Notes: generated by a model not told the origin, from the letters alone. A stretch of DNA of 64,000 bases from an uncultured Planctomycetia bacterium (GCA_964649705.1 CAZYRM010000006.1:6306-70305), one strand, 5' to 3'. Positions 5,940 through 39,518 are shown, counted from the stretch's first letter. Made by a program: numbers and translations.

Positions 5940-6472
5940 TGGTGCTCGACTACTTCAAGCAGGTCGTCCACGGCCTCTACACGGTCCTGGTGGGGATGAA
6001 GATCACCTGGCGCTACCTCTGGGTGAAGCCGGTGACGCTCCAGTACCCCGAGGAGATCTGGCATGTGCCGGACGGGTACCGCGGCTACCACGAGTACAGC
6101 GAGGCGCGGTGCATCGGCTGCTTCATCTGCGTGAAGGCGTGCCCGGTCGACTGCATCAGCATGGACATCACGCGCCAGAGCGGCGGGAAAAAGGCGATCA
6201 TCCACTCGTACGTGATCGACTTCACGAAGTGCATCTTTTGCAACCTCTGCTGCGAGCCCTGCCCGACGGAGCCGAAGTCAATTTGGATGGGCAAGGCCTA
6301 CGATATGAGCGTCCTGGCGGAGGACAAGGACAAGCTCGTGGTGGACTACTGCAAGCTCAAGACCGAGTACATCCCGTGGGCCGTGGGGGAACACATCCCG
6401 CCGTACAAGCCGGGGTCGGACGACAAGGCGCCGGAGCCGAAGGCTGCCGTTCCTGCGGGGAAGGGCGCGTAG
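5939..6472 (+). CDS. nuoI: NADH-quinone oxidoreductase subunit I (NuoI), 2x[4Fe-4S] ferredoxin subunit
   Basis: CIGCFICVKACP and CIFCNLCCEPCP motifs; ATG overlaps nuoD stop (ATGA). Confidence 0.8.
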   Translation: MVLDYFKQVVHGLYTVLVGMKITWRYLWVKPVTLQYPEEIWHVPDGYRGYHEYSEARCIGCFICVKACPVDCISMDITRQSGGKKAIIHSYVIDFTKCIFCNLCCEPCPTEPKSIWMGKAYDMSVLAEDKDKLVVDYCKLKTEYIPWAVGEHIPPYKPGSDDKAPEPKAAVPAGKGA

Positions 6473-6477
6473 GGACC

Positions 6478-7317
6478 ATGCCCGAGGCCCAGCAAGCAGG
6501 CCTTGCCAGGACCCCCCGGACACGCGCCCGCTGGCTCTGGGACGGCCCGTGGGCGCTCACGGGGAACCTCGCCAAGATTCGCGTGCTCGAGGACCTCATC
6601 GGGGAGTTCCCGAAGGGAGGACCCTCGGGGCGGGCCCGGATCCTCGACGTCGGCTGCGCGGGTCCGAGCCCTCTCAACCTGTGGGAGCCGTTCTTCGCGA
6701 GTCCTGAGGCGCCGCCGATCGAGGTCCAGGGCGTGGACGTCGACGCGGCCGGCGTGGAGGCCGTGCGGAGGCTCGCCAGGGAGCGCGGTTGGCCGCAGGT
6801 GGCTCGCCTGGAGGTCGGCTCGGCGTACGACCTGCCGCGCCTCTTCGCGCCGGGGACGTTCGACGCGGTGGTTTCGACGCAGGTGCTCGAGCACCTGGCG
6901 CGACCTGAGGAGTTCCTGCGCGGGGCGGCGGAGGTGACGAGGCCGGGCGGCCTGTGCTACGTCACGTTCGACTCGGGGCACTTCCCGTCGCACGACGCGG
7001 CCTGGAAGCGCCTCGCGCGGCGCTTGCTCGTGGCGCTCGGCAAGGAGCGGTACCACGAGAGGGGCCTGACGGAGACCGAGGTCGAGCGGATGGCGCGCGC
7101 TTGCGGTCTCTCGACGGTCGAGACGAGGTTCTACAACCTGCACGACGTGAAGCGGATCCACAACCACGGCGTCTCGGCGGACCGGAAGAACCGCCTGGCC
7201 GAGGTGTGGATGGAGCTGGAGGACTTCCTGAACGACGACCGCGCCTTCCTCGAGAGGGGAAGGCACTGGTTCGCAGGGATCTACATCAAGCTTCGGAAGT
7301 CGGAGTCGCGCCCGTAA
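6478..7317 (+). CDS. class I SAM-dependent methyltransferase
   Basis: ILDVGCAGPSPL glycine-rich SAM motif, Methyltransf_11-like; contains element copy at codons 4-11. Confidence 0.65.
   Translation: MPEAQQAGLARTPRTRARWLWDGPWALTGNLAKIRVLEDLIGEFPKGGPSGRARILDVGCAGPSPLNLWEPFFASPEAPPIEVQGVDVDAAGVEAVRRLARERGWPQVARLEVGSAYDLPRLFAPGTFDAVVSTQVLEHLARPEEFLRGAAEVTRPGGLCYVTFDSGHFPSHDAAWKRLARRLLVALGKERYHERGLTETEVERMARACGLSTVETRFYNLHDVKRIHNHGVSADRKNRLAEVWMELEDFLNDDRAFLERGRHWFAGIYIKLRKSESRP
6488..6510 (+). repeat. copy 2 of 24-nt in-frame element (CCCAGCAAGCAGGCCTTGCCAGG), encodes QQAGLAR
   Basis: sequence identity to other copies. Confidence 0.7.
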
Positions 7318-7321
7318 GGGC
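7302..7321 (+). repeat. 20-nt repeat GGAGTCGCGCCCGTAAGGGC containing TAA stop inside a GNRA-type (GTAA) hairpin; copy 1
   Basis: identical 20-mer at 8833-8852; both genes end ...ESRP*. Confidence 0.6.
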
Positions 7322-7339
7322 CCCGGGAGGATCACCGCC

Positions 7340-8848
7340 ATGCCCGACCGCCACAGGAACTTCATCCACGGGGAGTGGCGCGACGCGCGCTCCGGCCTGA
7401 CGTTCCCCGACATCAACCCGTCCGACACGGACGACCTGATCGGCTTCTTTCCCCAGTCAGGGCCCGAGGACGTCGACGACGCCGTCACGGCCGCCGCGAA
7501 CGCCCTTCCCGCGTGGCGCAGGACGCCGGCGCCGAAGCGGGCGGAGCTCATGTTCCGCGTAGGCGAGATCATGACGCGGCGCAAGGAGGAGCTCTCGCGC
7601 CTCATGACGCGGGAGATGGGAAAGGTCCTCTCGGAGGCCCGCGGCGACGTCCAGGAGGCGATCGACACCGCCTACCACATCGCGGGGGAGGGGAGGCGGC
7701 TGCACGGGATCACGACCCCCTCGGAGCTGCCCGACAAGTGGGCGATGACGATCCGCCAGCCGATCGGCGTGGCGGGGCTCATCACGCCGTGGAACTTCCC
7801 GATCGCCATCCCGACGTGGAAGAGCTTCCCGGCCCTCGTCGCGGGGTGCACGGTCGTCCTCAAGCCCGCCGAGGACACGCCGCTCTGCGCGACGGAGCTG
7901 GTCAGGGTCTTCCACGAGGCCGGCTTCCCGGCGGGGACGGTGAACCTGGTCCACGGAGGCGGTCCGGACGTCGGCGCGCCGCTCGTGAGGCACAAGGATG
8001 TCGGCGTGGTGAGCTTCACCGGGTCGAGCGAGGTGGGCCGCCAGATCGCCGAGTCGTGCGGGCGGGCGCTCAAGCGGTGCTCGCTGGAGATGGGCGGGAA
8101 GAATGCGCAGATCGTGCTCGAGGACGCCGACCTCGACCTGGCGATCCAGGGCTCGCTCTGGGGGGCGTTCGCGACGACGGGCCAGCGCTGCACGGCGACG
8201 AGCCGGATCATCGTGCAGCGCTCGATCCACGACCGATACGTCGAGCGGCTGGCGGCCGAGGCGGCGAGGGTCCGCATCGGCTACGGCCTCGAAGATGGCA
8301 TCCAGATGGGCCCGCTCATCAACGAGGGGCAGCGGACCACGGTCGCGAAGTACGTCGACATCGGCAAGGCGGAGGGCGCGCGGCTCGTCTGCGGCGGTGC
8401 GGCGTACCGGGAGGGGCGCTGCGCGCGGGGCTTCTTCTTCCAGCCGACGGTGTTCGACCGGGTCACCCCGAGCATGCGCATCGCGCGCGAGGAGATCTTC
8501 GGGCCCGTCGCCTCGGTGATCGCGGTCGATGACCTCGATCAGGCGATCCAGGTCCTGAACGGGACCTCGTACGGCCTGTCGTCGAGCATCTACACGCGCG
8601 ACGTGGCCGGGGCCTTCCGCGCGATGAGCGAGATCGAGTGCGGGATTGTGTACGTGAACGGCCCGACGATCGGCGCGGAGACGCACCTGCCGTTCGGCGG
8701 GTGGAAGGACACGGGGAACGGGCACCGGGAGGGGGGCGTGAGCGCTTTCCAGGCGTTCACCGAGGAGAAGACCATCTACGTGGATTACAGCGGCCGCCTG
8801 CAGCGGGCGCAGATAGACAACCAACCCGCCTTGGAGTCGCGCCCGTAA
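7340..8848 (+). CDS. NAD(P)+-dependent aldehyde dehydrogenase family protein
   Basis: PWNFP, GGKNA... ELGGK-like (LEMGGKNAQIV), catalytic Cys region TGQRCTA, EEIFGPV; 502 aa. Confidence 0.85.
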   Translation: MPDRHRNFIHGEWRDARSGLTFPDINPSDTDDLIGFFPQSGPEDVDDAVTAAANALPAWRRTPAPKRAELMFRVGEIMTRRKEELSRLMTREMGKVLSEARGDVQEAIDTAYHIAGEGRRLHGITTPSELPDKWAMTIRQPIGVAGLITPWNFPIAIPTWKSFPALVAGCTVVLKPAEDTPLCATELVRVFHEAGFPAGTVNLVHGGGPDVGAPLVRHKDVGVVSFTGSSEVGRQIAESCGRALKRCSLEMGGKNAQIVLEDADLDLAIQGSLWGAFATTGQRCTATSRIIVQRSIHDRYVERLAAEAARVRIGYGLEDGIQMGPLINEGQRTTVAKYVDIGKAEGARLVCGGAAYREGRCARGFFFQPTVFDRVTPSMRIAREEIFGPVASVIAVDDLDQAIQVLNGTSYGLSSSIYTRDVAGAFRAMSEIECGIVYVNGPTIGAETHLPFGGWKDTGNGHREGGVSAFQAFTEEKTIYVDYSGRLQRAQIDNQPALESRP

Positions 8849-8852
8849 GGGC
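8833..8852 (+). repeat. 20-nt repeat GGAGTCGCGCCCGTAAGGGC, copy 2; hairpin GCGCCC-GTAA-GGGCGC at 8839-8854 with stop codon in loop
   Basis: identical to 7302-7321. Confidence 0.6.
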
Positions 8853-8896
8853 GCGGTGGATCGACGCCCGTGAGGGCGTCGTATGAGGTGAACGCC

Positions 8897-9961
8897 ATGC
8901 CTGTGACTGAAGCCGACGTCCTGAAGCACCTGTCCAAGGTCGCCGACCCTGAGTTGGGACGCGACATCGTCTCGCTCGGAATGGTGAAGGACGTCAAGAT
9001 CGACGGGGGCGTCCTCGCGTTCGAGTTCGAGCTGACGACGGCCGCCTGTCCCATCCGCGAGAAGTTCGAGGGGGACGTCCGGAAGGCCGCGGAGGCGATC
9101 CCGGGCATCCGAGAGGTCCGGATCAAGGTCACCGCTCGCCCGGCGGCCGCCGGCAAGGTCGGGGCAATGATCCCGGGCGTGCGCAACGTGATCGCCATCG
9201 CGAGCGGAAAAGGGGGCGTCGGGAAGTCGACCGTGACCGCGAACCTCGCCCTCGCCCTCGCGAACGCCGGTACGCGCGTCGGCCTCATGGACGCCGACGT
9301 CTACGGGCCGAGCATCCCGATCATGTTCGGCATCACGAAGGAGAAGCCCGTCGGCGTCGGGGACAAGATCACGCCGATCGAGCGCTACGGCATCAAGATC
9401 ATCTCCGCGGGGTTCTTCATCGCGGAGGGGGAGGCGCTGATCTGGCGCGGGCCGATGCTCGCGGGGATCGTGAAGCAGTTCCTGACCGACGTCGCGTGGG
9501 GGGAGCTCGACTACCTCCTCGTCGACCTGCCCCCGGGCACCGGAGACGTCCAGCTCACGCTCTCCCAGATGATCCCGCTCACCGGCTCGGTGATCGTGAG
9601 CACGCCTCAGGACGTGGCGCTGATGGTCGCCGCGAAGGCGATCTACATGTTCCAGAAGCTTAACGTCCCGATCCTCGGGATCATCGAGAACATGGCCTGG
9701 TTCTCCTGCCCGCACTGTCACGAGCGCACCGACATCTTCGGCAGCGGCGGGGCGCGGAAGGCGGCCGACCGGGCGGGATACGTCTTCCTCGGAGAGGTCC
9801 CGCTCGACTCGGAGATCCGCGAGGCGGGGGACAAGGGGAAGCCGATCGTCCTGGCGCAGCCCGACTCGACGCTGTCGAAGGCGTTCACGCAGGTCGCCTT
9901 CAACATGGCGGGCCAGGTCTCTGTGCGCAACCTGACGACGGAAGAGATCAAGGTAGGGTAG
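8897..9961 (+). CDS. apbC: Mrp/ApbC/NBP35 family Fe-S cluster carrier ATPase with N-terminal DUF59 (MIP18-like) domain
   Basis: Walker A AIASGKGGVGKST, CPHC (FSCPHCHE) motif, DUF59-like N-term; GAGGTG RBS. Confidence 0.85.
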   Translation: MPVTEADVLKHLSKVADPELGRDIVSLGMVKDVKIDGGVLAFEFELTTAACPIREKFEGDVRKAAEAIPGIREVRIKVTARPAAAGKVGAMIPGVRNVIAIASGKGGVGKSTVTANLALALANAGTRVGLMDADVYGPSIPIMFGITKEKPVGVGDKITPIERYGIKIISAGFFIAEGEALIWRGPMLAGIVKQFLTDVAWGELDYLLVDLPPGTGDVQLTLSQMIPLTGSVIVSTPQDVALMVAAKAIYMFQKLNVPILGIIENMAWFSCPHCHERTDIFGSGGARKAADRAGYVFLGEVPLDSEIREAGDKGKPIVLAQPDSTLSKAFTQVAFNMAGQVSVRNLTTEEIKVG

Positions 9962-10028
9962 TCCCACGGAACGGATCTACCTGGACCACGCCGCGACCAC
10001 GCGCCCGCGCCCGGAGGTCCTCTCCGCG

Positions 10029-11114
10029 ATGCGGGAGGCCGACGAGCGCGCCTGGGCGAACCCGTCGAGCCTCCACGCCGACGGGATGGCCGCGCGGAGG
10101 CTCGTCGAGGGGGCCCGAGAGACGGTCGCTCGCGTGGTCGGAGGCGATCCGCGGGAAATCGTGTTCACCAGCGGGGGGACCGAGAGCGACAACCTCGCGG
10201 TGATCGGGATGGCCCGGGCGCTCCGGGCCAGGGGGCGCCACGTGGTGACCTCGCGGATCGAGCACCACGCCGTGCTGCACGCCTGCGACGCGCTGGCCAG
10301 AGAGGGCTTCGAGATTGGTTTCGTCGGCGTCTCGCCCTCCGGGGCTGTCGACCCGGACGAGGTTGCCCGCGCGCTGCGGCCCGACACGGTCCTCGTCTCC
10401 GTGATGCAGGCGAACAACGAGACCGGGGCGATCCAGCCGATCGCGGAGATCGCGCGGCGCTGCCGCGAACGCGGCGTTCTCGTCCACACGGATGCGGTGC
10501 AGGGCGCCGGAAAGGTCGCCATCGACGCGCGTTCGCTCGGCGTGGACGCGCTCTCGATCTCGGCCCACAAGCTCCACGGGCCGAAGGGCGCGGGCGCGCT
10601 CTGGCTTCGCGCGGGGGTCCCGATCGAGCCTCTCCTGCACGGAGGGGGCCACGAGCGTCAGCTCCGCGCCGGGACGGAAAACGTGGCGGGAATCGTGGGC
10701 CTCGCGCGGGCGCTGGAGCTCGCGGAGGCGGATCGCGCCGCGGACGTGCCGCGGATCGCGGCGCTCCGCAATCGACTTGAAAAGGGGATCTTGGACCGCA
10801 TCCAGGGCGTCCGCGTGAACGGCGCGAACCGCGTCGCGGGCCTGCTCAACGTCTGCTTCGACGCGATCGAGGGGGAGGGCGTCGTCCTGATGCTCTCGCA
10901 CCAGGGGATTTCATGCTCCACGGGCTCGGCGTGCACCTCGTCGAGCCGCGAGCCCTCCCACGTCCTCGCCGCGATGGGCGTGCCCCCGCGGACGGCCCAG
11001 GGCAGCGTCCGCTTCTCGCTCGGCCGCGACAACGACGAGGCGCAAATCGACGCGACGCTCGACGCGCTCGTGTCCGTCGTGCAGCGTCTCCGCGCCATGA
11101 GCCCGTTCGCGTAG
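10029..11114 (+). CDS. iscS: cysteine desulfurase (NifS/IscS class I aminotransferase V); conserved N-terminus (IYLDHAATT) lies upstream of first ATG with no canonical start
   Basis: SAHKLHGPKG (PLP-Lys), SSGSACTS active-site Cys loop; conserved region begins at about 9975 in same frame after TAG at 9954. Confidence 0.8.
   Translation: MREADERAWANPSSLHADGMAARRLVEGARETVARVVGGDPREIVFTSGGTESDNLAVIGMARALRARGRHVVTSRIEHHAVLHACDALAREGFEIGFVGVSPSGAVDPDEVARALRPDTVLVSVMQANNETGAIQPIAEIARRCRERGVLVHTDAVQGAGKVAIDARSLGVDALSISAHKLHGPKGAGALWLRAGVPIEPLLHGGGHERQLRAGTENVAGIVGLARALELAEADRAADVPRIAALRNRLEKGILDRIQGVRVNGANRVAGLLNVCFDAIEGEGVVLMLSHQGISCSTGSACTSSSREPSHVLAAMGVPPRTAQGSVRFSLGRDNDEAQIDATLDALVSVVQRLRAMSPFA
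11088..11114 (+). repeat. direct repeat A (CTCCGCGCCATGAGCCCGTTCGCGTAG), 3' end of nifS
   Basis: 25/27 identical to 12581-12607. Confidence 0.7.
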
Positions 11115-11234
11115 AGCCGACTGCAACGCCCTTGGGTCCGAAGACGGCCAGGTCGTCCAGGTGGCCTTCCTGCAGGACCAGAAGCATAAGACTCTGGCCT
11201 TGACTGGAGGCCACCTGTCCGCGATACTTCCTCC

Positions 11235-12563
11235 ATGTCCCTGCACCCGGTCCTGGAGGAGAAGCTCAATGCCGCCCTTGCCCCGGCGCCGCCGGTCACG
11301 CTCACGCGGCGCGAGGCACGGCTCCCCGAGGTTCCAGGAAAGGTGAATGCCGTCATCGGGATGCGCCGCGTCGGTAAGACCACGTTCCTCCGTCAACGGC
11401 TCCAGGAACTCCGGGCCGATGTGCCGCCCGAGCGCGCACTCTACCTCGGTTTCGACGACGATCGGCTCGTTGGACTCGAATTGGACCAGCTCGGCTCCCT
11501 GATCGAGGAGCACTATCGACGGTACCCCGCGCTGCGCGGCCGTGAAACCGTGCACTGGTTCTTCGACGAGATCCAGTTCGTGTCCGGCTGGGAGCGTTTC
11601 GTGCGTCGCATCCTCGACTCCGAACGAGTCGAAGTCGTCGTCTCAGGATCCTCGTCGCGGATGCTGTCACGCGAGGTTCACACGTCGCTCCGCGGTCGGG
11701 GAATGGCGACGGTCATCCGGCCCTTCAGCTTTCGCGAGTTCCTCCGTCATCGTGGCGAAGAGCCTGCGAAGGAGCCCAGGCGCTGGACCGCCGCCGAGCG
11801 ATCGCTCGTGGAGAAGCGCTTCCGCGAGTTCCTGATCGAAGGGGGGTTTCCGGAGGTCCAGGGGCTGGCGCCGACACTACGCCTCGACCTGCTGCAGGGC
11901 TACGTGGACACCGTGGTCTTCCGCGACGTAGTGGAGCGCCACGGCGTGACGCAGGTGTCGGCTCTGCGGTGGCTCGTGCGCCACTGCCTGCGAAACTCCG
12001 CAGCGAGGTTCAGTGTCCACCGCCTGACCCAGGACCTCCGGTCACAGGGGCACGGCGTGGCGAGAGATGCGGTGCACGCCTTCCTGGGACAGCTCACGGA
12101 TGCCTTCCTTCTCACCGCGGTGCCGGTGGCGACTGATTCGGAGCGACGGCGCAATTCCAATCCGCGCAAGATCTACCTCGCCGACCCCGGGTTCATCGGG
12201 GCGTTCGACGTCAGCGGCCGCGCGAACACCGGCCATGCGCTCGAAACCGTCGTCCTGAACGAGCTGGAGCGGCGCGGTGCCGAGACGGGCTACGTGATCA
12301 CGGCGGAGGGGTTCGAGGTGGACTTCCTCGCCCGACACCGTTCGGCGGGCGAGGAGCTGCTGCAGGTGTGCGCGGACCCCACGACGACGGATACGGGCGC
12401 GCGCGAGCTGCGAGCGCTCGCCGGGGCCGCGAAGGAGCATCCGCGCGCGGCATTGCGGCTGCTCGTGCTCGATCGCGAGGGAGCTGTGCGCATGAAGGCG
12501 CCCGGGGTACGGGTCCAACCCGCCTACGAGTGGCTGCTGGGAGGGGAGGGCGTTTCCCCGTAG
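11235..12563 (+). CDS. AAA+ ATPase with DUF4143 domain (AAA_14/DUF4143 family)
   Basis: Walker A GMRRVGKTT, Walker B HWFFDEIQ, C-terminal DUF4143-like region; flanked by duplicated nifS 3' end. Confidence 0.7.
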   Translation: MSLHPVLEEKLNAALAPAPPVTLTRREARLPEVPGKVNAVIGMRRVGKTTFLRQRLQELRADVPPERALYLGFDDDRLVGLELDQLGSLIEEHYRRYPALRGRETVHWFFDEIQFVSGWERFVRRILDSERVEVVVSGSSSRMLSREVHTSLRGRGMATVIRPFSFREFLRHRGEEPAKEPRRWTAAERSLVEKRFREFLIEGGFPEVQGLAPTLRLDLLQGYVDTVVFRDVVERHGVTQVSALRWLVRHCLRNSAARFSVHRLTQDLRSQGHGVARDAVHAFLGQLTDAFLLTAVPVATDSERRRNSNPRKIYLADPGFIGAFDVSGRANTGHALETVVLNELERRGAETGYVITAEGFEVDFLARHRSAGEELLQVCADPTTTDTGARELRALAGAAKEHPRAALRLLVLDREGAVRMKAPGVRVQPAYEWLLGGEGVSP

Positions 12564-12580
12564 CCCCTGCCGTCCAGAGC

Positions 12581-12607
12581 CTCCGCGCGCTGAGCCCGTT
12601 CGCGTGA
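12581..12607 (+). repeat. direct repeat B (CTCCGCGCGCTGAGCCCGTTCGCGTGA), duplicate of nifS 3' end, encodes ...LRALSPFA*
   Basis: 25/27 identical to 11088-11114; extended similarity for about 40 nt. Confidence 0.7.
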
Positions 12608-12620
12608 CGCGGGTCCCGCC

Positions 12621-14693
12621 CTACAGGTGCGCGCGGAAGTACTCGACCACGCGCTCCTCCATGTTTCGCCGGTCCTTCTGGCTGCGCGGGACGTGGCGCT
12701 CCTCCGGGTAGAGGAGCAGGTCGACCTTGCGATTCGCCTTCGCGAGCGCGTCCAGGAACCGCGACGTGTGGCGGAAGTGCACGTTCTCGTCGATCATCCC
12801 GTGGACGATCAGGAGCTTCCCGCGGAGCTTCTCGGCGTGCGTCATCGCGCTGGCCTCCCGGTACCCCGCCGGGTTGTCCTGAGGCCGACGCATGTAGCGC
12901 TCGGTGTAGAACGTGTCGTAGCCGTCCCACGAGGTCACCGGCGCCCCGGCGACGCCGACCTTGAACACGTCGGACGCCTTGAGCAGGCAGAGGATCGTCA
13001 TGTACCCGCCGTAGGACCAGCCGTACATGCCGACGCGGTCGCCATCGACCCAGCCCCGGGACTGCGCGTATCGCACGCCATCCACCTGGTCGTCGACCTC
13101 CACGGTGCCCATGCGCCGCAGGATCTCGCCCTCGAACGCCAGCCCGCGCCGCGCGCTGCCGCGGTTGTCCACAGACATCACCACGAAACCCTGCGAGGCC
13201 AGGTACTGCGCGCGCAGGTCGACCGTCGTGCCCCAGGAGTCGAGCACGCTCTGCGCGTGCGGGCCCCCGTAGACGTCCACGATGAGCGGCGCCGGCAGGC
13301 GGGCGGGGAGGGTCACGACGCCGTGGAGCGTGACGCCGCTCCGGTTCCGGAACGTGAAGAGCTCCGGGGTTGCGAGGCGGACGTCGATCTCGGCGGGTTG
13401 GTGGAGCACGTGGATCGACCGGGCGTGGACCGTGATGGTCGGGGGGGCGAGCGTGGAGTGGAAGGTGTCGGCCCAGGCGGAAAGGTCCTTCGCGAACACC
13501 GCGCCGTGCATGCCAGGCTCGCTCGTCCAGGGCTCCGGCTCGCCGCCCTCGAGCGACGCGACGAGGACGTGACTCTCGACCGGTGAGGTCGCCGCGTGGA
13601 ACGCGACCCGCCGGTCTTCCTCGTCGAGCGTGACGCCTCCGCAGGGGAACATGGTCTCCGTCACGGGGCGGCACTCGCTACCGTCTGGCGAGTAGAGGTA
13701 GAGCTGCCGGTACCCGGTGCGCTCCGACGACCACAGGAACTCCCCGGTCGCGCGGACGAATCGGAGGTCGTCGTGGAGGTTGACCCAGATGACGCTTGCC
13801 TCGTTCAAGAGCGCCATCCGTCGCCCGGTCCGGGGCTCGTAGGCCCACAGATCGAGCCGCGTCTGGTCTCGGTCCATGGTCTGGACGAACAGGCGGCCGT
13901 CGGGGTGCCAGTCCACACGGCACAGGTACTCGGCGTCCTCCAGGTCGAGCCAGGTGACGGGCCCTCCGCGGGCGGCGACCACACCCAGGCGGGCCCGCGC
14001 GTTTTCGCCGCCGGCGAACGGGTAGCGGTGCTCCTCCAGGTCGTGCGGCTCGGCTGTCCCCCAGTGCGGGATGCGGAAGAGGGGGATGTGCCGCTCGTCG
14101 ACCTGCTCGAAGGCCAGACGCTCCCCGTCTCGGCTCCACCAGAAGCCCTGGGACCGGCCCATTTCCTCCTGGGCGACGTACTCGGCCAGCCCGTTCGTGA
14201 CTCCGGGCGCGGCGCCATGGGTCAGGCGTCGCTCCTGGCCGTCTGCCACGTCGAGGCACCAGAGCTCCCCGTCGCGGACGAAGGCGACCCGGCGGCCGTC
14301 CCGGGAGAGCCGAGGCGAGAGGGCATTCCCCCCGACGCGGCGCGCGCGGCCTCCCTCGACGACCCACAGCTCGCCGCGAAGGGGCACGAGGACGACCTCC
14401 GCGTCCTCGGCCCACTCGTAGTGCGTCACGCCCGTGTGGAGCAGCCGCTCGCGCTCGCGTCGAAGCTGCTCCTCGCGCGAGATGTTCTCCTCGGTGACGC
14501 CCGTCTCCGGGGCGAAGAACAGCGAGGTCTCACCGGTCGCGACATCCATGGACCACAGACGCCGATTCAGGCCGCCGTCGGGGTCGTGGAGGAAGGTCAG
14601 CAGCCGTCCGCTCGGGGAGAAGGCGAGCTTGGCGGGGACGGCCGTCCCTGGCGCGGGGATGTGCGCCACGAGGTCCAGCGTCAGCTCTCGCAT
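12621..14693 (-). CDS. S9 family peptidase (DPP-IV/prolyl oligopeptidase-like) with N-terminal beta-propeller
   Basis: GWSYGGYMT nucleophile elbow, C-terminal D...H triad region, TolB-like propeller repeats N-terminal. Confidence 0.8.
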   Translation of the reverse strand: MRELTLDLVAHIPAPGTAVPAKLAFSPSGRLLTFLHDPDGGLNRRLWSMDVATGETSLFFAPETGVTEENISREEQLRRERERLLHTGVTHYEWAEDAEVVLVPLRGELWVVEGGRARRVGGNALSPRLSRDGRRVAFVRDGELWCLDVADGQERRLTHGAAPGVTNGLAEYVAQEEMGRSQGFWWSRDGERLAFEQVDERHIPLFRIPHWGTAEPHDLEEHRYPFAGGENARARLGVVAARGGPVTWLDLEDAEYLCRVDWHPDGRLFVQTMDRDQTRLDLWAYEPRTGRRMALLNEASVIWVNLHDDLRFVRATGEFLWSSERTGYRQLYLYSPDGSECRPVTETMFPCGGVTLDEEDRRVAFHAATSPVESHVLVASLEGGEPEPWTSEPGMHGAVFAKDLSAWADTFHSTLAPPTITVHARSIHVLHQPAEIDVRLATPELFTFRNRSGVTLHGVVTLPARLPAPLIVDVYGGPHAQSVLDSWGTTVDLRAQYLASQGFVVMSVDNRGSARRGLAFEGEILRRMGTVEVDDQVDGVRYAQSRGWVDGDRVGMYGWSYGGYMTILCLLKASDVFKVGVAGAPVTSWDGYDTFYTERYMRRPQDNPAGYREASAMTHAEKLRGKLLIVHGMIDENVHFRHTSRFLDALAKANRKVDLLLYPEERHVPRSQKDRRNMEERVVEYFRAHL

Positions 14694-14748
14694 GTCGGCA
14701 CGCTTCCAAAACGAGCTCGAGGAGTCTAGCGTGCGGCCTCTCGTCGGC

Positions 14749-15615
14749 CTAGCGGTACTGCGCGGCCTGCATGCGGACGACCTTGAGGACCTCGATCGCG
14801 CGGCGGTACCGATCTTCCAGCCAGCGGTCGTTCGGCAGGATGTCGAAGACGCTCGCATAGCCGCCGGCCGCCTTTCGGATCTCGGCGAGGCAGGTCGTGA
14901 TCTCCTTGCCGCGCACGTCGTCGTTGCGTGATGCCCGGAACGCCTCGTGGTGGACCAGGCTCGCATCGAAGGCCTGGTTCGCCTCCTCGATCCTGGCCTT
15001 GATCGCGGGGTCGGCGTAGTCGGGCTGGGGGCCCTCCTTCGTGACCTCCCAGTCTCCGGTCAGGGGCGGCGCTTCTTCCTCGGGCGCGGCAGATCCGGTG
15101 GGCTCCTCGGGCGTGTCGGGCTGTTCGGGAGGGGCCGGCGTCGGGGGGCCCGGCTGCGGCGGGGCAGGGTCCTGCCCGGGCGGCGTAGGCTTCCGGGCGA
15201 CGGGGCGCTCCTTCTCCTCGATCCGGTCCATCTCCTCGCGACCGAACTTGACCATGCCAATCTTCATGAAGAGCTCCACGGTGTTCTTCCGCAGGACGAG
15301 GTCTCCCGCGAAGTGCCGTCCGTCCTTGAGGAAGAGGTCGCCGTAGACGGGGTCGATCTCCTCGACCGGCGCGAGGACCTTGTTCGCCGCGGGCTTCGCT
15401 TCGCCCTTCTGGATGGTCTCGATCTCCTCGGCCTTGAAGTGCGCGGAGCCGAACTTGAGCTCGACGTCGACGGAGGAGTCGGCGCGCACGGTGATCTTGC
15501 CCTCGATATGCCGCCCGTCCTTCAGGACGACCACGCCCTTGAACGGCGCCGCGGGGTCGTCGGCCGAGAGGAGTGCCACCGTGGTCAGGAGCAGGAGCGC
15601 GATTCGTCGTCCCAT
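14749..15615 (-). CDS. secreted hypothetical protein with duplicated LKDGRH motifs and Pro-rich linker
   Basis: signal peptide MGRRIALLLLTTVALLSA; two VLKDGRH/FLKDGRH repeats. Confidence 0.45.
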   Translation of the reverse strand: MGRRIALLLLTTVALLSADDPAAPFKGVVVLKDGRHIEGKITVRADSSVDVELKFGSAHFKAEEIETIQKGEAKPAANKVLAPVEEIDPVYGDLFLKDGRHFAGDLVLRKNTVELFMKIGMVKFGREEMDRIEEKERPVARKPTPPGQDPAPPQPGPPTPAPPEQPDTPEEPTGSAAPEEEAPPLTGDWEVTKEGPQPDYADPAIKARIEEANQAFDASLVHHEAFRASRNDDVRGKEITTCLAEIRKAAGGYASVFDILPNDRWLEDRYRRAIEVLKVVRMQAAQYR

Positions 15616-15949
15616 CTGTCTCACGGCATGCCCTCCCATCGGCGGCGGGTCCCATCGAGCGCGGAGATTGTATGGTCTCGACGCGAGTCGGGTCCAGCCG
15701 CGAGGTTGGTTGGTCCGCTATGCGCTCGGATCCCAGACCGGTCTGGAGTCATCTGTTTGATGGGCGTGCCGACCGTTCCGCAGCACCACCCTCAGAAGCC
15801 CGCTGACCGCCGCGTGCCCCGAGCCGCAACCGCATCGCGCGCAGTCTTGGCCATGGAGCCGCTGCGGCTCTCGGTACATCGCAAAACGGTACGGACCGAT
15901 TTACGATACCCCGTAAAACGGTCCGAGCGCGCGGAGGGGGCGCGCGCGG

Positions 15950-18733
15950 TCACTTCGCCTGGCCGAGCATGATGCAGCCCCAGGGGCCTGAGCCGCCCGC
16001 GCCCGCGTGCGTCCACTTCGCGTCCAGCATCGCCGCGTGCCTCGCCGCGTCCGCCAGCCACTCCTTGAAGATGTCGCCCGGCTTCTTCTCCTTCGAGGAG
16101 AGGAGCGCCACCTCGCCGAAGCCGTCCACTGCGGGCTTGTCCTCGGCCTTGCCGTTCTTCGCCAGCGCCGCCGCCTGCGTCGAGGCGGCCTTTCCCAGCG
16201 CCTCGTCGATCCGCAGCACGGGGCGGCCCATCAGCTCGCGATAGGCGTTCACGTCGGCCAGGATCTGCGGCACCCGCGCCTTCTTGTTCGCCGCCTCCGC
16301 CTCCGCCGACCGCCGCATCTGGTCCCGCTCGTCCTGGCACGTCGCAAATGTCTGCAGCGCCACCGCCTCCAGGTCCGCATTCGACCCCGCCAGCTTCAAC
16401 TGCGTCCGCCACGGGTCTACGCCGACGAAGAGCCCCTGCACCTCGTCCAGCTCCTTCGCAGCCTGCCGGACCTCCGCGGAGACCTTCACCTCCTTGCCCC
16501 TCGCCCCCCAGAGCTTCGCCACCGCCTTCTGCTTCTCAGGGGTCGGCGCCGCCTGCGCCTCCGCGCGCGCCGCGTCGAGCGCCTTCCGCGCCTCGGCGAG
16601 CGGCGCGAGGGACTTCTCCCACTCCGCCAGCTTCGCAAGGAGCGCCTGCCGCCGCTCGTCGAGCGCCTCCGACATCGCCGCTTTCACCTCTCGCGCGAGC
16701 CACGACGGCTTCGCCGGCAGACCCTTCGCGAAGGCGTCGACCTCAGATGGCTTGAGCCCCGAGGCCTTCTGTAGCAGCTCGACGAGCCGCCCGCCGTTCA
16801 CGCCGTAGCGCACGACGAGATCGGCCGGAGGGAGGAATCGGAGCATCGCGTGCGCCTCCGCGAAGGCCGACTTCGCCTCGGGCGCGGCATCCTTCCCCAG
16901 GCGGAACACCTCGATCGGCGTCAGGTCCTCCCAGCCGTCCGGGACCGTCCACGCGGGCTTCGCGCCCGGCGCGTCGTACCCGCCCGCGAAGTCCGACTGC
17001 TTCCACGCCGTCCCGTTCTTCTTTCCGTTCGCGTACCGGTCCATCCCGCCGAGGTCCAGGAAGATGCCGAAGTGTCGCTTCTCGCTGTCGGTCACCTGGC
17101 CGTCGCTGTTGTAGTCCTCGACCGTGTAGAACCGGCCGGACCCCGTGTTCCCGTCGGCCACACGGTAGTCGTCGTCGCCTCCCCGGTCCTGGAACAGGGC
17201 GATCCCCAGCCCCGTGGTCCACCCCAGCCCGCTCGCCGTCTTGATGTAGGTGTCGTTCCCAGCGTCGTCGAGGAAGAACCCCATTCCGTAGTCGACGCTC
17301 ATCCCCAGGCAATTCCAGCCGCCGATGTCGTAGACATCGTCCCCCGCGCGGTCGATGAAGCACCCGAACCCGCCGTGCGCCCCCGATCCCGTCGTGTACA
17401 CCCACGAGCGGTGCCGGTCGTCCCCCTCGTAGTCGACCAGCGCGCCGATTCCGAGGTAGTACCCGACGCCCATTGCCCAGCACCCCGACTCGTAGACGTC
17501 GTCCCCCTTCGCGTCGATCAGCATTCCGAGGCCGCCTCCTCGCCGACCCGGGTGATCGGGCGTGTTGTAGTCGTTGTCGCCCCATCCGCCCCCCATCCCC
17601 GAGCTCGCGTTGTGCTTCTCGTCCTGCGGCGCCTTGTTCGTGAGCGGGTCGCCGAAGTCCGGGTCGTTGAGGTGGTACTTGTCGTCCCCAGCGAGGTCCA
17701 GGAGCAGGGCGAACGCCGAGCAGTAGCCGAACCCCATGCACGCGCTGTCGCCGCGGTAGGAGTCGTTCCCAGCGCGGTCCACCAGCGCGCCGATCCCGAC
17801 GAGCGCGTACCCCTGCGCGCTCTCGTCGGCGACGTAGGTGTCGTCGCCCGCCTCGTCGATGAGCATCCCGACGCCCGCCGTGGCCGCGCCCTGGCACTCC
17901 TTCTTCCCCTCGTAGCGGTCGTTCCCGGCCAGGTCCCAGAGCACGGCGATGCCGTACTGCGCGCTCCCCTGGCCCTCGCCCCTGTAGGTGTCGTTCCCCC
18001 CGACGTCGACGAACACGCGGACGCAGTTCTGCGCCGTCGCGGTCGGCAGTTCGTGGACGTCGTCGCCTCCCAGGTCGACGACGAGCGGGACGCCCGTGTC
18101 CTTCGGCGTGCCGCTCGTCACGACGAGGAGGCCCTCGATGGAGAAGTCGACGTCGCCCTGGAAGGCGAGGAGCGCCGGCTTGGCCACCTCGACGGCACGG
18201 AGCACGATGCGGGAGGCGTTCCACAGGCGCGCCGTCATCTCGTCGTCGCTCGATCGCGAGTAGTCGCCCGCGCTGTTCCCCTGCGGGCGGCCCTTCGTGA
18301 ACGCGGCGGCGCGCTCCTTCTCGGCGGCCTCCACGGCCGCGACGAGGAGGCCGATTGGCGCGCGGAGCGGCTCCGGCAGGCCCGAGAGGTCGGCCGCGGA
18401 GGGAGGCGGCGCGGGCGGGTCGCCGGCGGGGCGGTCGAAAGCCGCGGCGAGAATCGGGATCAGGTCGTCGGGCGCCTTCGCCGCGATGCAGGGGTCCGAG
18501 ATCGCGAGCACGCGGTCGGGGAGCGAGAGCGGGTCCTTCTGCGACTCGCGATAGGCCTGCAGGTGGCCGAGCTCGTGATCGGTCCGAGCACCGTACGCCT
18601 GGTTCTTGTTGGGCATCGTGTTGAGGTGCTCGAAGTCGAACTCGACCTTCTTCCCCTCGATTGCCTTCTCCACGGCGCCCCGGTCGACAGCCCCTGCCTG
18701 CGCCAGGAGGACCGACAGGATCAAGCCCAGCAT
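15950..18733 (-). CDS. large secreted protein: signal peptide, HExxH motif, about 20 GxDxY beta-helix-like repeats, coiled-coil region, C-terminal CAP/SCP/PR-1-like domain
   Basis: HELGH near N-term; GNDRY/GDDTY/GNDSY/GDDVY repeats with about 23-aa period; C-term YRELMGRP...GEVALLS...KWTHAGAG...WGCIM resembles CAP motifs. Confidence 0.55.
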   Translation of the reverse strand: MLGLILSVLLAQAGAVDRGAVEKAIEGKKVEFDFEHLNTMPNKNQAYGARTDHELGHLQAYRESQKDPLSLPDRVLAISDPCIAAKAPDDLIPILAAAFDRPAGDPPAPPPSAADLSGLPEPLRAPIGLLVAAVEAAEKERAAAFTKGRPQGNSAGDYSRSSDDEMTARLWNASRIVLRAVEVAKPALLAFQGDVDFSIEGLLVVTSGTPKDTGVPLVVDLGGDDVHELPTATAQNCVRVFVDVGGNDTYRGEGQGSAQYGIAVLWDLAGNDRYEGKKECQGAATAGVGMLIDEAGDDTYVADESAQGYALVGIGALVDRAGNDSYRGDSACMGFGYCSAFALLLDLAGDDKYHLNDPDFGDPLTNKAPQDEKHNASSGMGGGWGDNDYNTPDHPGRRGGGLGMLIDAKGDDVYESGCWAMGVGYYLGIGALVDYEGDDRHRSWVYTTGSGAHGGFGCFIDRAGDDVYDIGGWNCLGMSVDYGMGFFLDDAGNDTYIKTASGLGWTTGLGIALFQDRGGDDDYRVADGNTGSGRFYTVEDYNSDGQVTDSEKRHFGIFLDLGGMDRYANGKKNGTAWKQSDFAGGYDAPGAKPAWTVPDGWEDLTPIEVFRLGKDAAPEAKSAFAEAHAMLRFLPPADLVVRYGVNGGRLVELLQKASGLKPSEVDAFAKGLPAKPSWLAREVKAAMSEALDERRQALLAKLAEWEKSLAPLAEARKALDAARAEAQAAPTPEKQKAVAKLWGARGKEVKVSAEVRQAAKELDEVQGLFVGVDPWRTQLKLAGSNADLEAVALQTFATCQDERDQMRRSAEAEAANKKARVPQILADVNAYRELMGRPVLRIDEALGKAASTQAAALAKNGKAEDKPAVDGFGEVALLSSKEKKPGDIFKEWLADAARHAAMLDAKWTHAGAGGSGPWGCIMLGQAK

Positions 18734-18811
18734 GCTGTTCGCTCCTTGCCGCGGTTGTCCGAGCGGTGGTAGAAGTGATGTCCATATCACCCCGGCGGGA
18801 AGAACACAAAG

Positions 18812-38666: not shown

Positions 38667-38836
38667 TTGCTGCATTCTCTTTGCTGGCTTCCGTCTGCGG
38701 GTTTCTGCCCTGGGGGGTGCCGCCCTTCACGCCTGCGGGCGGCACAGGAGGCAAGCTCTCCCGCGATCCCCGCGAGGGGCTTGCTGCTCCTGGGTGGGCG
38801 GGCTAGAATTCGGACAGTGACGGGCTTGAGGAAGGA

Positions 38837-39472
38837 GTGAGCACTGTGGCAGTCACCTCTCCGGAACATGCGCGGGCACACATGCCACCCCTCGCACGCC
38901 TGGATGTCGACCAGTACCACGCGATGATCGAGGCCGGCATCCTGCGCGAGGGCAGTCCGTTCGAGTTGCTTGACGGGCTCCTGGTGCAAAAAGACCGGAG
39001 CGCGCGCGGGGAGGATTCGATGACGATCGGCAAGCGCCACAGGGCCGCCGTGGACCTGCTCGCCGGCCTGGATGCGCTGGTGAAGCCCCATGGCTGCTGG
39101 ATCATGAAACAAGGGCCTGTGACGCTGCTCCGTTCCCACGAGCCGGAACCCGACGGGCTCGTTGTCCGGGGTCAGACCCGCGACTACCTGGAGCGACACC
39201 CTGGACCCACGGACGTCTTCTGCGTCATCGAGGTGTCGGACGGCTCCCTGGACCACGATCGCACGAACAAGCTCCGGATCTACGCGGCCGCGGGGATCCC
39301 CCAGTACGTCATCGTCAATCTGGTCGACCTCCAGGTCGAGGTCTTCGAGTCGCCTGTCCCTGCGGAAGGGCGATACTCGCAGACCAAGGCGCTCCAGGCT
39401 GGAGCCACGCTCCCCCTCTACGTGGGCGAAGGCACGCGCGTCGATGTGCCCGTGCGCGACCTCCTGCCGTAG
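38837..39472 (+). CDS. Uma2 family endonuclease (DUF820)
   Basis: FELLDGLLV...D...E...K PD-(D/E)xK-like Uma2 pattern; GTG start with GGAAGGAG RBS. Confidence 0.65.
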   Translation: MSTVAVTSPEHARAHMPPLARLDVDQYHAMIEAGILREGSPFELLDGLLVQKDRSARGEDSMTIGKRHRAAVDLLAGLDALVKPHGCWIMKQGPVTLLRSHEPEPDGLVVRGQTRDYLERHPGPTDVFCVIEVSDGSLDHDRTNKLRIYAAAGIPQYVIVNLVDLQVEVFESPVPAEGRYSQTKALQAGATLPLYVGEGTRVDVPVRDLLP

Positions 39473-39518
39473 GGGCCTACAAGGGGGAGGGCGCCAGACG
39501 CGCCGCGATCCGTGCTCC

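What the first reader, a model, noticed from the sequence alone, without database searches (positions are those of the whole stretch)
11088..12607. AAA+ (DUF4143) ATPase gene flanked by a direct duplication of the nifS 3' end: insertion signature
The last 27 nt of nifS (CTCCGCGCCATGAGCCCGTTCGCGTAG, 11088-11114) recur at 12581-12607 (25/27 identical; similarity extends about 40 nt, encoding ...VQSLRALSPFA* vs nifS ...VQRLRAMSPFA*) immediately after the ATPase gene. The 1.5-kb segment between the repeats carries only the DUF4143 AAA+ ATPase plus a 120-bp leader with an 11-bp inverted repeat (CAGGTGGCCT ... AGGCCACCTG at about 11163-11218). This looks like site-specific insertion at the 3' end of nifS that regenerates the gene end, i.e. 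a minimal integrated cassette, although no integrase is present in the window.
Basis: seen in the sequence. Interest (0 to 1): 0.6.

Follow-up and report, generated by a model that had tools for sequence, protein, structure and literature searches.

The report
Mobile ATPase-nuclease gene inserted after nifS
A single horizontally travelling gene (an AAA+ ATPase fused to a nuclease-like domain, listed as the untested defence candidate PDC-S01) has been inserted between a cysteine desulfurase gene and a peptidase gene, copying the last 43 bases of the desulfurase gene in the process, and other copies of the same gene elsewhere show the same kind of scar, though no enzyme that could move it is evident.

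Summary
The nifS 3' end (11072-11114) recurs at 12565-12607. A relative (L175) has nifS and the same peptidase adjacent, with one nifS end and no ATPase. Two closer nifS relatives also lack it. So this is an insertion.

The insert is a compact cassette: a palindromic operator pair, a sigma-70-like promoter giving a leaderless mRNA, and one ORF (AAA_14 + DUF4143; PADLOC PDC-S01). Homologues 74-80% identical occur as solo genes in four phyla in unrelated contexts, whereas nifS finds nothing above 59% outside its own lineage.

Six of 33 non-redundant cassette loci carry flanking direct repeats (20-61 nt; controls 6/800, p=2e-6). These include the 3' ends of an AraC-type gene, an unnamed gene and a tRNA-Arg.

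Targets differ, repeat lengths vary, cassette ends are imprecise, and no recombinase is present. "Site-specific integration" is therefore not supported. I favour insertion-coupled duplication of the target, filtered by selection for intact host genes. The enzymology is unknown.

The parts
9963..11114 (+). Host cysteine desulfurase gene (nifS/IscS-like, Aminotran_5). It remains intact up to its TAG stop.
   Evidence: Pfam Aminotran_5, E 4e-83. Relatives 79-91% identical end in ...RLR(A/S)MSPFA*. The annotated ATG is at 10029; the conserved IYLDHAATT motif starts upstream at 9975, where there is no canonical start codon.
11072..11114 (+). Direct repeat copy 1: the functional last 43 nt of nifS, including the TAG stop.
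   Evidence: It encodes the family consensus ...VVQRLRAMSPFA*.
11115..11157 (+). A 43-nt spacer between nifS and the conserved cassette. It is not conserved in any other cassette locus and is probably DNA carried along with the cassette.
   Evidence: Upstream alignments lose all similarity to the left of about -87 to -100 from the ATG. The first 12 nt or so weakly resemble the post-nifS sequence of L175; this is unresolved.
11158..11180 (.). Upstream operator-like palindrome O1 (TGGCCT-N7-GGACCA, imperfect).
   Evidence: (I10). A half-site or full palindrome lies about 35 nt upstream of O2 in most loci; it is complete in L123, L127 and L130.
11195..11213 (.). Operator-like palindrome O2, TGGCCT-TGACTGG-AGGCCA. 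It overlaps the -35 box.
   Evidence: A 6+7+6 palindrome lies about 40 nt before the start codon in 34 of 39 non-redundant loci. Its two arms change together: TGTCCT/AGGACA, TGGCCT/AGGCCA, TGGCCC/GGGCCA.
11200..11228 (+). Sigma-70-like promoter TTGACT-17 nt-GATACT. The -10 box ends 6 nt before the ATG, so the mRNA is predicted to be leaderless.
   Evidence: This is the only promoter-like site in 10900-12800, against 0.1 expected. The same layout is conserved across loci. No Shine-Dalgarno sequence is present.
11235..12563 (+). The cassette gene: a 442-aa AAA+ ATPase (AAA_14) with a helical middle part and a C-terminal DUF4143 (PD-(D/E)XK-like) domain. It matches the PADLOC candidate PDC-S01.
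   Evidence: Pfam. PADLOC PDC-S01, E 6e-89. More than 100 homologues at 74-80% identity from four phyla. The model shows an ORC/Cdc6/RFC/McrB-like AAA+ fold and a helix/three-strand/helix/strand C-terminus. GC3 is 0.83, against 0.90-0.96 in the neighbouring genes.
12565..12607 (+). Direct repeat copy 2: the displaced, untranslated remnant of the nifS 3' end (...AVQSLRALSPFA, TGA). It is contiguous with the native downstream sequence.
   Evidence: It aligns to the single nifS end of L175 over 12565-12610. It carries substitutions at residues conserved in all relatives. It shares the lineage-specific Q codon with copy 1 and L175.
12621..14693 (-). Host S9/DPP-IV peptidase gene, convergent with nifS. 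It forms the right flank of the insertion site.
   Evidence: Pfam DPPIV_N and Peptidase_S9. The 690-aa gene call appears in L093. Its 90%-identical homologue in L175 lies next to nifS with no ATPase between them.

Best explanation
The 1.45-kb segment 11115-12564 is a horizontally acquired single-gene cassette that was inserted at the junction of two convergent host genes, nifS and an S9 peptidase.

The cassette consists of two palindromic operators, a promoter that gives a leaderless mRNA, and one gene. That gene encodes an AAA+ ATPase with a PD-(D/E)XK-like DUF4143 domain and matches the abundant but unvalidated defence candidate PDC-S01.

The insertion duplicated about 43 bp of the target, namely the end of nifS with its stop codon. 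The left copy keeps nifS intact. The right copy is a decaying remnant.

The same scar recurs at other copies of the cassette. There it involves different host sequences, different repeat lengths and imprecise cassette ends. The duplication is therefore made from the target at each insertion, not by a site-specific recombinase acting on a fixed att site.

Inferred mechanism: non-site-specific joining of the incoming DNA at two breaks or template-switch points tens of bases apart, followed by fill-in. Selection then keeps only insertions whose duplicated stretch spans a gene's 3' end. Whether the cassette's own nuclease-ATPase makes the breaks is unknown.

What is shown: the insertion, the duplication, horizontal spread of the cassette, the conserved promoter and operator layout, and the recurrence of flanking repeats. 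What is inferred: the way the duplication arises, autoregulation through the operators, and any role of the protein in its own mobility or in defence.
For: Repeat:
- It is real and unique in the window.

Empty sites:
- L175 has peptidase, 278 nt of intergenic sequence, then nifS, with one nifS end and no ATPase.
- L088 (nifS 91% aa identical) and L089 (86%) also lack the ATPase.

Which copy is functional:
- Copy 1 encodes the family consensus, and copy 2 has changes at conserved residues.
- Both copies and L175 share a Q codon that is absent from the more distant relatives, so the duplicated sequence is local rather than from a distant donor.

Foreign origin of the gene:
- ATPase homologues are 74-80% identical in Planctomycetota, Acidobacteriota, Coriobacteriia and Verrucomicrobiales.
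- nifS drops to 59% or less outside its own lineage.
- GC3 is 0.83 against 0.90-0.96 in the neighbours.
- Every locus examined has different neighbouring genes.

Cassette limits:
- Similarity between loci starts 87-100 nt before the ATG and ends within about 30 nt after the stop.
- The operator and promoter are conserved in 34 of 39 loci, with symmetrical changes in the two arms.

Recurrence of flanking repeats:
- 6 of 33 non-redundant loci against 6 of 800 same-geometry controls, Fisher p = 1.9e-6. The four control hits inspected include three pairs of tandem nifS paralogues.
- L110: 58/61 nt, the 3' end of an AraC/PocR gene.
- L108: 46/49 nt, the 3' end of a 203-aa gene.
- L116: 31/34 nt core, the 3' part of tRNA-Arg(CCG) plus downstream sequence.
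- The cassette lies in either orientation relative to the preserved host gene.

Independent assemblies give the identical structure.
Against: - No enzyme for insertion has been identified, so the mechanism rests on anatomy alone.
- The two copies differ by 8 of 39 nt, about as much as either differs from L175. On this evidence, an old in-situ duplication cannot be told apart from a gene end imported from a related donor.
- Twenty-seven of 33 loci show no flanking repeat. This may reflect decay, or it may mean that duplication is not obligatory.
- I could not test whether other recently acquired genes in such genomes show similar repeats. The scar may be a general signature of illegitimate insertion rather than a property of this cassette.
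- L099 (20/20) and L114 (21/22) are close to the control tail.
- No empty sites could be obtained for the other repeat-bearing loci.
- One locus (L116) has a short tyrosine-recombinase gene 1.3 kb away, on the other side of the tRNA.
Confidence: 0.6

Rival explanations
1. Endonuclease-driven invasion of gene 3' ends, as in fungal mitochondrial mobile ORFs. The ATPase-nuclease cuts the target, and the cassette is copied in together with a ready-made replacement gene end. On this reading copy 1 is imported and copy 2 is the displaced native end.
For: - The architecture is the same as in the atp6, atp9, cox2 and nad3 hybrids of Allomyces and Glomus: host gene, inserted C-terminus, endonuclease ORF, native C-terminus (PMC3630166).
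- The protein carries a PD-(D/E)XK-like domain (PMC3424549).
- Copy 2 keeps several states shared with L175 (CCCC, C at the third position of the R/S codon, GCGCG, post-stop CGC) where copy 1 differs.
- The imperfect repeats (79-95%) fit a diverged donor.
Against: - Copy 1 is no more foreign than copy 2 by identity to L175 or L088.
- At L108 and L110 the preserved gene end lies on the stop-codon side of the cassette, whereas in the window it lies on the promoter side. A gene-end mimic would therefore have to be acquired anew, on either side, at every new target.
- There is no in-frame fusion.
- Nuclease activity is untested.
Confidence: 0.15
2. Campbell-type integration. A circular DNA carrying the cassette plus a short piece of a relative's nifS 3' end recombined with the resident nifS by homologous recombination, duplicating the shared segment.
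For: - The variable repeat lengths are what single crossovers on arbitrary homologous segments would give. These run from 20 nt to 61 nt, and possibly to 1.6 kb or more in L180, where the cassette lies between two 92%-identical copies of a protease gene.
- Mismatches are spread along the repeats.
- Extra non-conserved DNA travels with the cassette.
Against: - The donor would already need to carry the cassette next to the same gene, so the first insertion at each new target remains unexplained.
- Homology of 20-49 nt at 90-95% identity is near or below the usual lower limit for RecA-mediated exchange (established knowledge, not tested here).
- The L180 flanks may simply be an ordinary tandem gene duplication.
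Confidence: 0.12
3. A remnant or cis-mobilisable mini-island of an integrase-type element that targets gene 3' ends. The repeats would be attL and attR, and the recombinase is lost or acts in trans.
For: - Direct repeats that include the 3' end of a protein gene or a tRNA gene are the classic island signature.
- One locus has a Phage_integrase-domain gene nearby.
Against: - The repeat-bounded unit is the same single gene at six unrelated targets, which random decay of larger islands would not produce.
- The repeats share no core (by inspection).
- There is no identical crossover core within the window's repeats.
- No integrase was found in the cassette, in the 25 window ORFs scanned, or (by similarity to the L177 integrase) in the other loci.
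- The cassette ends are imprecise.
Confidence: 0.1
4. Chance GC-rich similarity or an assembly chimera; no real duplication.
For: The genome is about 70% G+C, and short GC-rich matches are common (one search lists many families at 70-80% identity).
Against: - 0 matches expected against 2 observed for the 25-nt core.
- Copy 2 aligns to a relative's nifS end over 46 nt, in frame and ending in a stop codon.
- Three independent assemblies are identical.
Confidence: 0.01

Closest known systems
PADLOC phage-defence candidate PDC-S01 (AAA_14 + DUF4143 ATPases, COG1373)
   Same: There is a strong HMM match (E 6e-89) and the same two-domain architecture. Many relatives lie directly next to DUF499/HEPN_Swt1 or DUF1156 genes. 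This fits the way PDCs were found, as genes embedded in BREX, DISARM and type I RM systems (bioRxiv 10.1101/2024.01.29.577857).
   Different: Here the gene stands alone between housekeeping genes. No defence activity has been shown for the family: the one PDC-S01 tested gave no protection against T4, T5 or T7. In the papers I could search, the insertion scars, the cross-phylum near-identity and the conserved operator and leaderless promoter are not described for PDC-S01.
Fungal mitochondrial mobile ORFs (free-standing LAGLIDADG/GIY-YIG endonuclease genes) with carboxy-terminal duplications of atp6, atp9, cox2 and nad3
   Same: A nuclease-type ORF is inserted at the 3' end of a host gene. The gene keeps a working end, and a diverged duplicate of that end lies beyond the ORF (PMC3630166).
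   Different: The protein family is different (AAA+ with PD-(D/E)XK). There is no in-frame fusion. The cassette has its own promoter and sits in either orientation. It is not shown that the working gene end is imported.
Integrase-mediated genomic islands at tRNA or protein-gene 3' ends, and their integrase-less derivatives (cis-mobilisable elements)
   Same: Direct repeats consisting of the target gene's 3' end flank the inserted DNA. One related locus uses a tRNA-Arg gene.
   Different: There is no recombinase, no shared att core, imperfect repeats with no identical crossover segment, variable distance between repeat and cargo, and only 1.45 kb with one gene.
Transposons and insertion sequences with target-site duplications
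   Same: A discrete DNA segment found at many unrelated sites, with flanking duplication of target sequence.
   Different: No transposase and no terminal inverted repeats. The duplications are 20-61 nt or longer and variable, rather than short and fixed. The ends are imprecise and carry along 0-200 nt of earlier flanks, including the first 22-46 nt of a former downstream DUF499 gene.

Membership tests
PDC-S01 / AAA_14-DUF4143 (COG1373) ATPases | Significant match to the PDC-S01 profile HMMs | tested here: met
   PDLC04787, E 5.7e-89, covering residues 36-436, plus six further PDC-S01 models.
PDC-S01 / AAA_14-DUF4143 (COG1373) ATPases | N-terminal AAA_14 P-loop domain followed by a C-terminal DUF4143 (PD-(D/E)XK-like) domain | tested here: met
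   PF13173, E 4.9e-32, residues 36-170. PF13635, E 2.8e-13, residues 230-369. Walker A GxxxxGKT and the DEIQ motif are invariant in the alignment. The C-terminal fold is modelled with good confidence, but the middle part is poor.
PDC-S01 / AAA_14-DUF4143 (COG1373) ATPases | Anti-phage activity | not testable with these tools
   From the literature only: it is a candidate, and one representative gave no protection against T4, T5 or T7 in E. coli.
Integrase-type integrative island | Direct repeats (attL/attR) that include the 3' end of the target gene | tested here: met
   also at L110, L108 and L116.
Integrase-type integrative island | A tyrosine or serine recombinase encoded within the element | tested here: not met
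   The only ORF between the repeats is the ATPase. None was found among the 25 window ORFs scanned. tblastn with the L177 integrase found nothing in the window or in the other loci.
Integrase-type integrative island | The same att core at different integrations of related elements, with an identical crossover segment in attL and attR | tested here: not met
   The repeats at the window, L110, L108, L116, L099 and L114 are unrelated sequences of 20-61 nt. Mismatches are spread along them.
Transposon / insertion sequence | An encoded transposase and defined termini (terminal inverted repeats or equivalent) | tested here: not met
   No transposase domain. The palindromes lie only at the promoter end and are operators overlapping the -35 box. 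The breakpoints between near-identical cassettes differ between pairs: -87, -95 and -100 on the left, +22 and +34 on the right.
Transposon / insertion sequence | Target-site duplication of fixed length | tested here: not met
   Lengths of 20, 22, 34 or more, 43, 49 and 61 nt.
Mobile endonuclease ORF with C-terminal duplication (mitochondrial mORF type) | A nuclease ORF inserted at a host gene's 3' end, with a duplicated C-terminal coding segment downstream | tested here: met
   The nuclease assignment rests on the domain family only (PMC3424549).
Mobile endonuclease ORF with C-terminal duplication (mitochondrial mORF type) | The working C-terminus is foreign, and the displaced one matches close relatives | tested here: inconclusive
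   Copy 1 against L175 is 36/43 identical. Copy 2 against L175 has about 8 differences and 1 indel in 44. Both are equally close to L088.
Mobile endonuclease ORF with C-terminal duplication (mitochondrial mORF type) | LAGLIDADG or GIY-YIG homing endonuclease, often fused in frame to the host gene | tested here: not met
   The protein family is different and it has its own promoter; a 120-nt gap with stop codons separates it from nifS.

The most novel reading that the evidence does not exclude
PDC-S01 ATPase-nuclease genes are autonomous selfish elements of a kind not yet described in prokaryotes. On this reading the protein binds its own palindromic operators and uses its PD-(D/E)XK domain to break target DNA. 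This drives insertion of its own 1.4-kb gene at gene and tRNA 3' ends, with long and variable target duplications. If so, the frequent 'embedding' of PDC-S01 inside BREX, DISARM, RM and DUF499/DUF1156 systems, and its rank as the fourth most common 'defence system', would reflect mobility rather than, or as well as, defence.
Probability: 0.15. Interest if true: 0.8.

Novelty: new variant of a known kind. Interest (0 to 1): 0.55.

Why it matters
PDC-S01 is reported as the fourth most common "defence system" across prokaryotes, with about 39,000 instances in one survey (PMC12988326). It has no demonstrated function, and it was nominated only because it is found inserted inside other systems.

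This locus and its relatives show three things about the gene. It is a self-contained, operator-controlled, leaderless cassette. It crosses phylum boundaries with little sequence change. It leaves long target duplications at the 3' ends of genes and of a tRNA, without any recombinase of its own.

This offers a concrete and testable alternative reason for its "embedding": it may simply be insertion-prone. It also provides a defined substrate for experiments, namely filled and empty nifS-peptidase sites, the operator sequence and the cassette limits. Finally, it adds a prokaryotic counterpart to the gene-end duplications known from mitochondrial mobile endonuclease ORFs.

If the duplication instead proves to be a general scar of illegitimate insertion, it would still be a useful marker for dating and delimiting recent gene acquisitions in metagenome-assembled genomes.

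Tried and rejected
- **Genome-contig scan with nifS.** The best hits were 57% identical or less, so it gave no usable relative. The empty sites came instead from protein searches plus contig look-ups.
- **L163.** Its 115-nt flanking repeat looked like the best case, but it has a third copy in the locus. It is a dispersed repeat and was excluded.
- **High-scoring controls in Binatia loci.** These turned out to be tandem nifS paralogues, not insertion scars.
- **Structure prediction.** The model was mediocre (pLDDT 64, poor for residues 221-330). Foldseek against the PDB gave only generic AAA+ matches (ORC/Cdc6, RFC, McrB, PCH-2), which say nothing about transposition or defence. A sequence search of the PDB found nothing.
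- **Plasmid and phage collections.** They hold only distant homologues (33% identity or less), so they gave no annotated context for this subfamily.
- **The single IMG/VR hit.** It is the same DNA as L116.
- **Operator search.** My first operator pattern used the wrong spacing and found nothing. The correct 6+7+6 layout was scored.
- **Rfam.** No family matched 10900-12800. The single-strand fold of the leader is only marginally better than shuffles (z = -2.2), and the palindrome lies upstream of the predicted transcription start, so a DNA operator is the better reading.
- **Which repeat copy is resident.** Diagnostic positions against L175, L088 and L090 were inconclusive.
- **Shared motif among the repeats.** Only CCCTTCAAA is shared, by L110 and L116, and I did not judge that meaningful.
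Full report
**1. The observation**

The region contains, from left to right:
- an Mrp/ParA-type Fe-S carrier gene (8870-9961);
- a class-V aminotransferase (nifS/IscS-like) ending at 11114;
- a 442-aa ORF at 11235-12563 with AAA_14 and DUF4143 domains;
- a convergent S9/DPP-IV peptidase gene (12621-14693, minus strand).

Its 25-nt core occurs only at these two places in the 64-kb window, with none expected in 100 shuffles. The 39 nt up to the stop codons are 31/39 identical. The inverted repeat is real, with 10-nt perfect arms at 11158-11167 and 11209-11218. The whole structure is 100% identical in two further assemblies from other sequencing runs, so it is not an assembly artefact.

**2. It is an insertion**

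The window's ATPase is annotated as coming from a Planctomycetota metagenome-assembled genome. Five nifS relatives at 79-91% amino-acid identity all end in ...RLR(A/S)MSPFA*, as copy 1 does. Copy 2 would read ...SLRALSPFA*, with changes at two conserved residues.

- **L088** (nifS 91% identical): nifS is followed 8 nt later by the homologue of the window's gene 14749-15639. Both the ATPase and the peptidase are absent there.
- **L089** (86% identical): the ATPase is also absent.
- **L175**: this is the decisive case. It carries a peptidase 90% identical to the window's, followed by 278 nt of hairpin-rich intergenic DNA and then, convergently, a single nifS end (...VVQRLRAMSPFT*). There is no ATPase.

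Both window copies align to that single end. Copy 2 aligns over 12565-12610, which begins one base after the ATPase stop codon and runs 3 nt past its own stop. The duplicated unit is therefore about 43 nt (11072-11114 and 12565-12607), and the inserted DNA is 11115-12564.

Both copies and L175 share a glutamine codon that more distant relatives lack. The duplicated sequence therefore comes from this lineage, not from a distant donor.

**3. What was inserted**

The ATPase matches the PADLOC candidate PDC-S01 (E 6e-89). More than 100 database proteins are 74-80% identical to it. Those with names come from Planctomycetota, Acidobacteriota, Coriobacteriia and Verrucomicrobiales. By contrast, nifS finds nothing above 59% outside its own small lineage. 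The gene's GC3 is 0.83, against 0.90-0.96 in its neighbours.

In every locus I fetched, the gene stands between different neighbours. Alignment of about 40 loci shows that similarity begins 87-100 nt before the start codon and ends within about 30 nt after the stop.

The conserved leader has a clear structure:
- A 6+7+6 palindrome lies about 40 nt before the ATG in 34 of 39 non-redundant loci. It is usually TGTCCT-TGACAGA-AGGACA, and here TGGCCT-TGACTGG-AGGCCA. Its two arms change together.
- The spacer of the palindrome supplies a TTGACA-type -35 box.
- A -10-like hexamer ends 6 nt before the ATG, and there is no Shine-Dalgarno sequence.
- The promoter scan found exactly this site and no other: TTGACT-17-GATACT, 11200-11228.
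- A second half-site or full palindrome lies about 35 nt further upstream.

I infer autoregulation from this layout; it is not shown.

The structural model is only partly confident. It gives an ORC/Cdc6/RFC/McrB-like AAA+ module and a C-terminal helix/three-strand/helix/strand unit consistent with the PD-(D/E)XK assignment of DUF4143 (PMC3424549).

**4. The scar recurs**

I scored the best direct repeat between 330 nt upstream of the leader and 330 nt downstream of the stop codon.

- Mismatched locus pairs reach a score of 14.5 at most.
- In 800 same-geometry controls from unrelated loci, the 99th percentile is 17.5. Six score 19 or more; of the four I inspected, three are pairs of tandem nifS paralogues.
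- Among 33 non-redundant cassette loci, six score 19.5-53.5 (Fisher p = 1.9e-6).

| Locus | Repeat | What is duplicated |
|---|---|---|
| L110 | 58/61 nt | last codons and stop of a convergent AraC/PocR regulator gene |
| L108 | 46/49 nt | last 15 codons and stop of a convergent 203-aa gene |
| L116 | 31/34 nt core, weaker similarity on both sides | last 14 nt of tRNA-Arg(CCG) (about 35 nt in a weaker, extended alignment) and what follows it |
| window | 43 nt | nifS 3' end and stop |
| L099 | 20/20 nt | not assigned; near the control tail |
| L114 | 21/22 nt | not assigned; near the control tail |

A seventh candidate, L163, was rejected because its repeat has a third copy in the locus.

The preserved host gene lies on the promoter side of the cassette in the window and L116, and on the stop-codon side in L108 and L110. 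The repeat abuts the cassette on one side and is separated from it by non-conserved DNA on the other: 1-106 nt beyond the stop, and 0 to about 200 nt before the leader. Near-identical cassettes break from each other at different points in different pairs:
- L096 and L097 (99.7% identical) break at -87;
- L117 and L125 break at -95 and +22;
- L114 and L121 break at -100.

Several cassettes carry the first 22-46 nt of a DUF499/HEPN_Swt1 gene. In other loci that gene is the intact downstream neighbour.

**5. Mechanism**

The features to be explained are these:
- one and the same gene at many unrelated sites;
- duplications made of local target sequence;
- repeat lengths from 20 to more than 60 nt;
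- imprecise ends that drag along earlier flanks;
- either orientation relative to the host gene;
- no recombinase.

These rule out membership of the integrase-island and transposon families on their defining features (see the membership table). They also argue against a fixed att site.

The most economical reading is insertion-coupled target duplication. The incoming DNA is joined at two points tens of bases apart, either staggered breaks that are then filled in or a template switch that re-enters upstream of where it left. Selection then removes insertions that truncate a gene. The surviving duplications therefore tend to span a stop codon or a tRNA 3' end.

I cannot say which enzymes do this, nor whether the cassette's own nuclease-ATPase takes part. 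Three rivals remain open:
- a mitochondrial-mORF-like mechanism in which the working gene end is imported with the nuclease gene (PMC3630166);
- Campbell-type integration of a circle carrying a relative's gene end;
- mobilisation in trans by an integrase.

The first is disfavoured because the gene end would have to be re-acquired on either side at each new target, and because copy 1 is no more foreign than copy 2. The second does not explain first insertions. The third fails the att-core and recombinase tests.

**6. Relation to what is known, and limits**

PDC-S01 was nominated as a defence candidate because such genes are found embedded within BREX, DISARM and type I RM systems. It is reported as the fourth most common system across prokaryotes, with transfers between the two domains. 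The one representative tested did not protect E. coli against T4, T5 or T7.

I found no description of its insertion scars, operator and leaderless promoter, or cross-phylum near-identity in the searchable literature. That library is incomplete.

The data here do not show defence and do not show self-mobility. They show a compact, frequently transferred cassette with a recurrent and unusual insertion scar.

Main limits:
- only one locus has a true empty-site comparison;
- 27 of 33 loci show no repeat;
- there is no control set of other recently acquired genes;
- the age of the window's insertion (8/39 differences between the copies) blurs the junctions.

Noticed in passing
window 9954-10031: nifS has no canonical start codon upstream of its conserved N-terminal motif IYLDHAATT (from 9975). 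A TAG stop lies in frame at 9954-9956, and the first ATG is at 10029, which would remove about 20 conserved residues. Relatives start MSDRIYLDHAATT. Either a rare start codon is used (for example ATC at 9975) or the gene is N-terminally shortened.
   Followed up: partly
L096 2514-, L106 4348-, L126 4346-; L122 and L172 just after the ATPase stop: In many loci the cassette lies directly upstream of a large HEPN_Swt1-like/DUF499-type P-loop gene (MAITNHERVGKALELL...) or a DUF1156-type gene (MNQKLIEVALPLDAIN...). These family assignments come from my own recognition of the N-terminal sequences and were not tested with a profile search.
   Followed up: partly
L117 3566-3587, L125 1778-1799, L180 3850-3895: Solo cassettes in unrelated contexts still carry the first 22-46 nt of that DUF499-type gene (MAFTNQKRV, MAITNRKRV, MAISNQERVGKAMEL). 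The subfamily therefore seems to have escaped repeatedly from a home upstream of such a gene, with imprecise right ends.
   Followed up: partly
L180 2-1655 and 4673-6326: The cassette lies between two tandem copies, 91.7% identical, of a 672-aa Asp_protease_2/PDZ gene. The repeat runs off both ends of the DNA I hold. This could be an ordinary tandem duplication or a kilobase-scale version of the flanking duplication.
   Followed up: partly
L175 (reverse strand) 121-398: In the relative, the nifS-peptidase intergenic region is 278 nt and is packed with GC-rich hairpin repeats (GCCCCGAAGGGGCG, CCAGGGGCxxxGCCCCTGG, GAGCCCTGAAxGGGCGAC). In the window only 13 nt separate the nifS remnant from the peptidase stop.
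   Followed up: no
window 11115-20047 compared with L088 and L089: The DNA downstream of nifS varies between relatives. L088 lacks the peptidase as well as the ATPase. L089 lacks the ATPase, the peptidase and the 296-aa gene, keeps only fragments of the 946-aa gene, and has a DUF2891 gene instead.
   Followed up: partly
window 36600-44412, especially 38837-39472: This stretch of genes has lower GC3 (0.81-0.86). It includes a solo Uma2-family putative restriction endonuclease (PD-(D/E)XK), a kinase/FGE-sulfatase fusion and three ORFs with no Pfam match. It may be another acquired segment.
   Followed up: partly
L059, L066, L072 (Binatia) about 6000-8700: Two cysteine desulfurase paralogues lie in tandem. 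They produced the highest scores in my control set.
   Followed up: yes
L163 970-1079, 2422-2536, 4343-4457: A dispersed repeat of about 115 nt is present in three copies around a distant (50% identical) ATPase homologue. Copies of it also occur in L174.
   Followed up: partly
L116/L177: L177 1742-2383: A short (213-aa) Phage_integrase-domain gene lies about 1.3 kb upstream of the tRNA-Arg whose 3' end is duplicated around the cassette. IMG/VR labels the contig as viral.
   Followed up: partly
L090 6762-6863 compared with window 8827-8882: The short segment between the aldehyde dehydrogenase and Mrp genes is present in several overlapping tandem copies in the relative L090.
   Followed up: no
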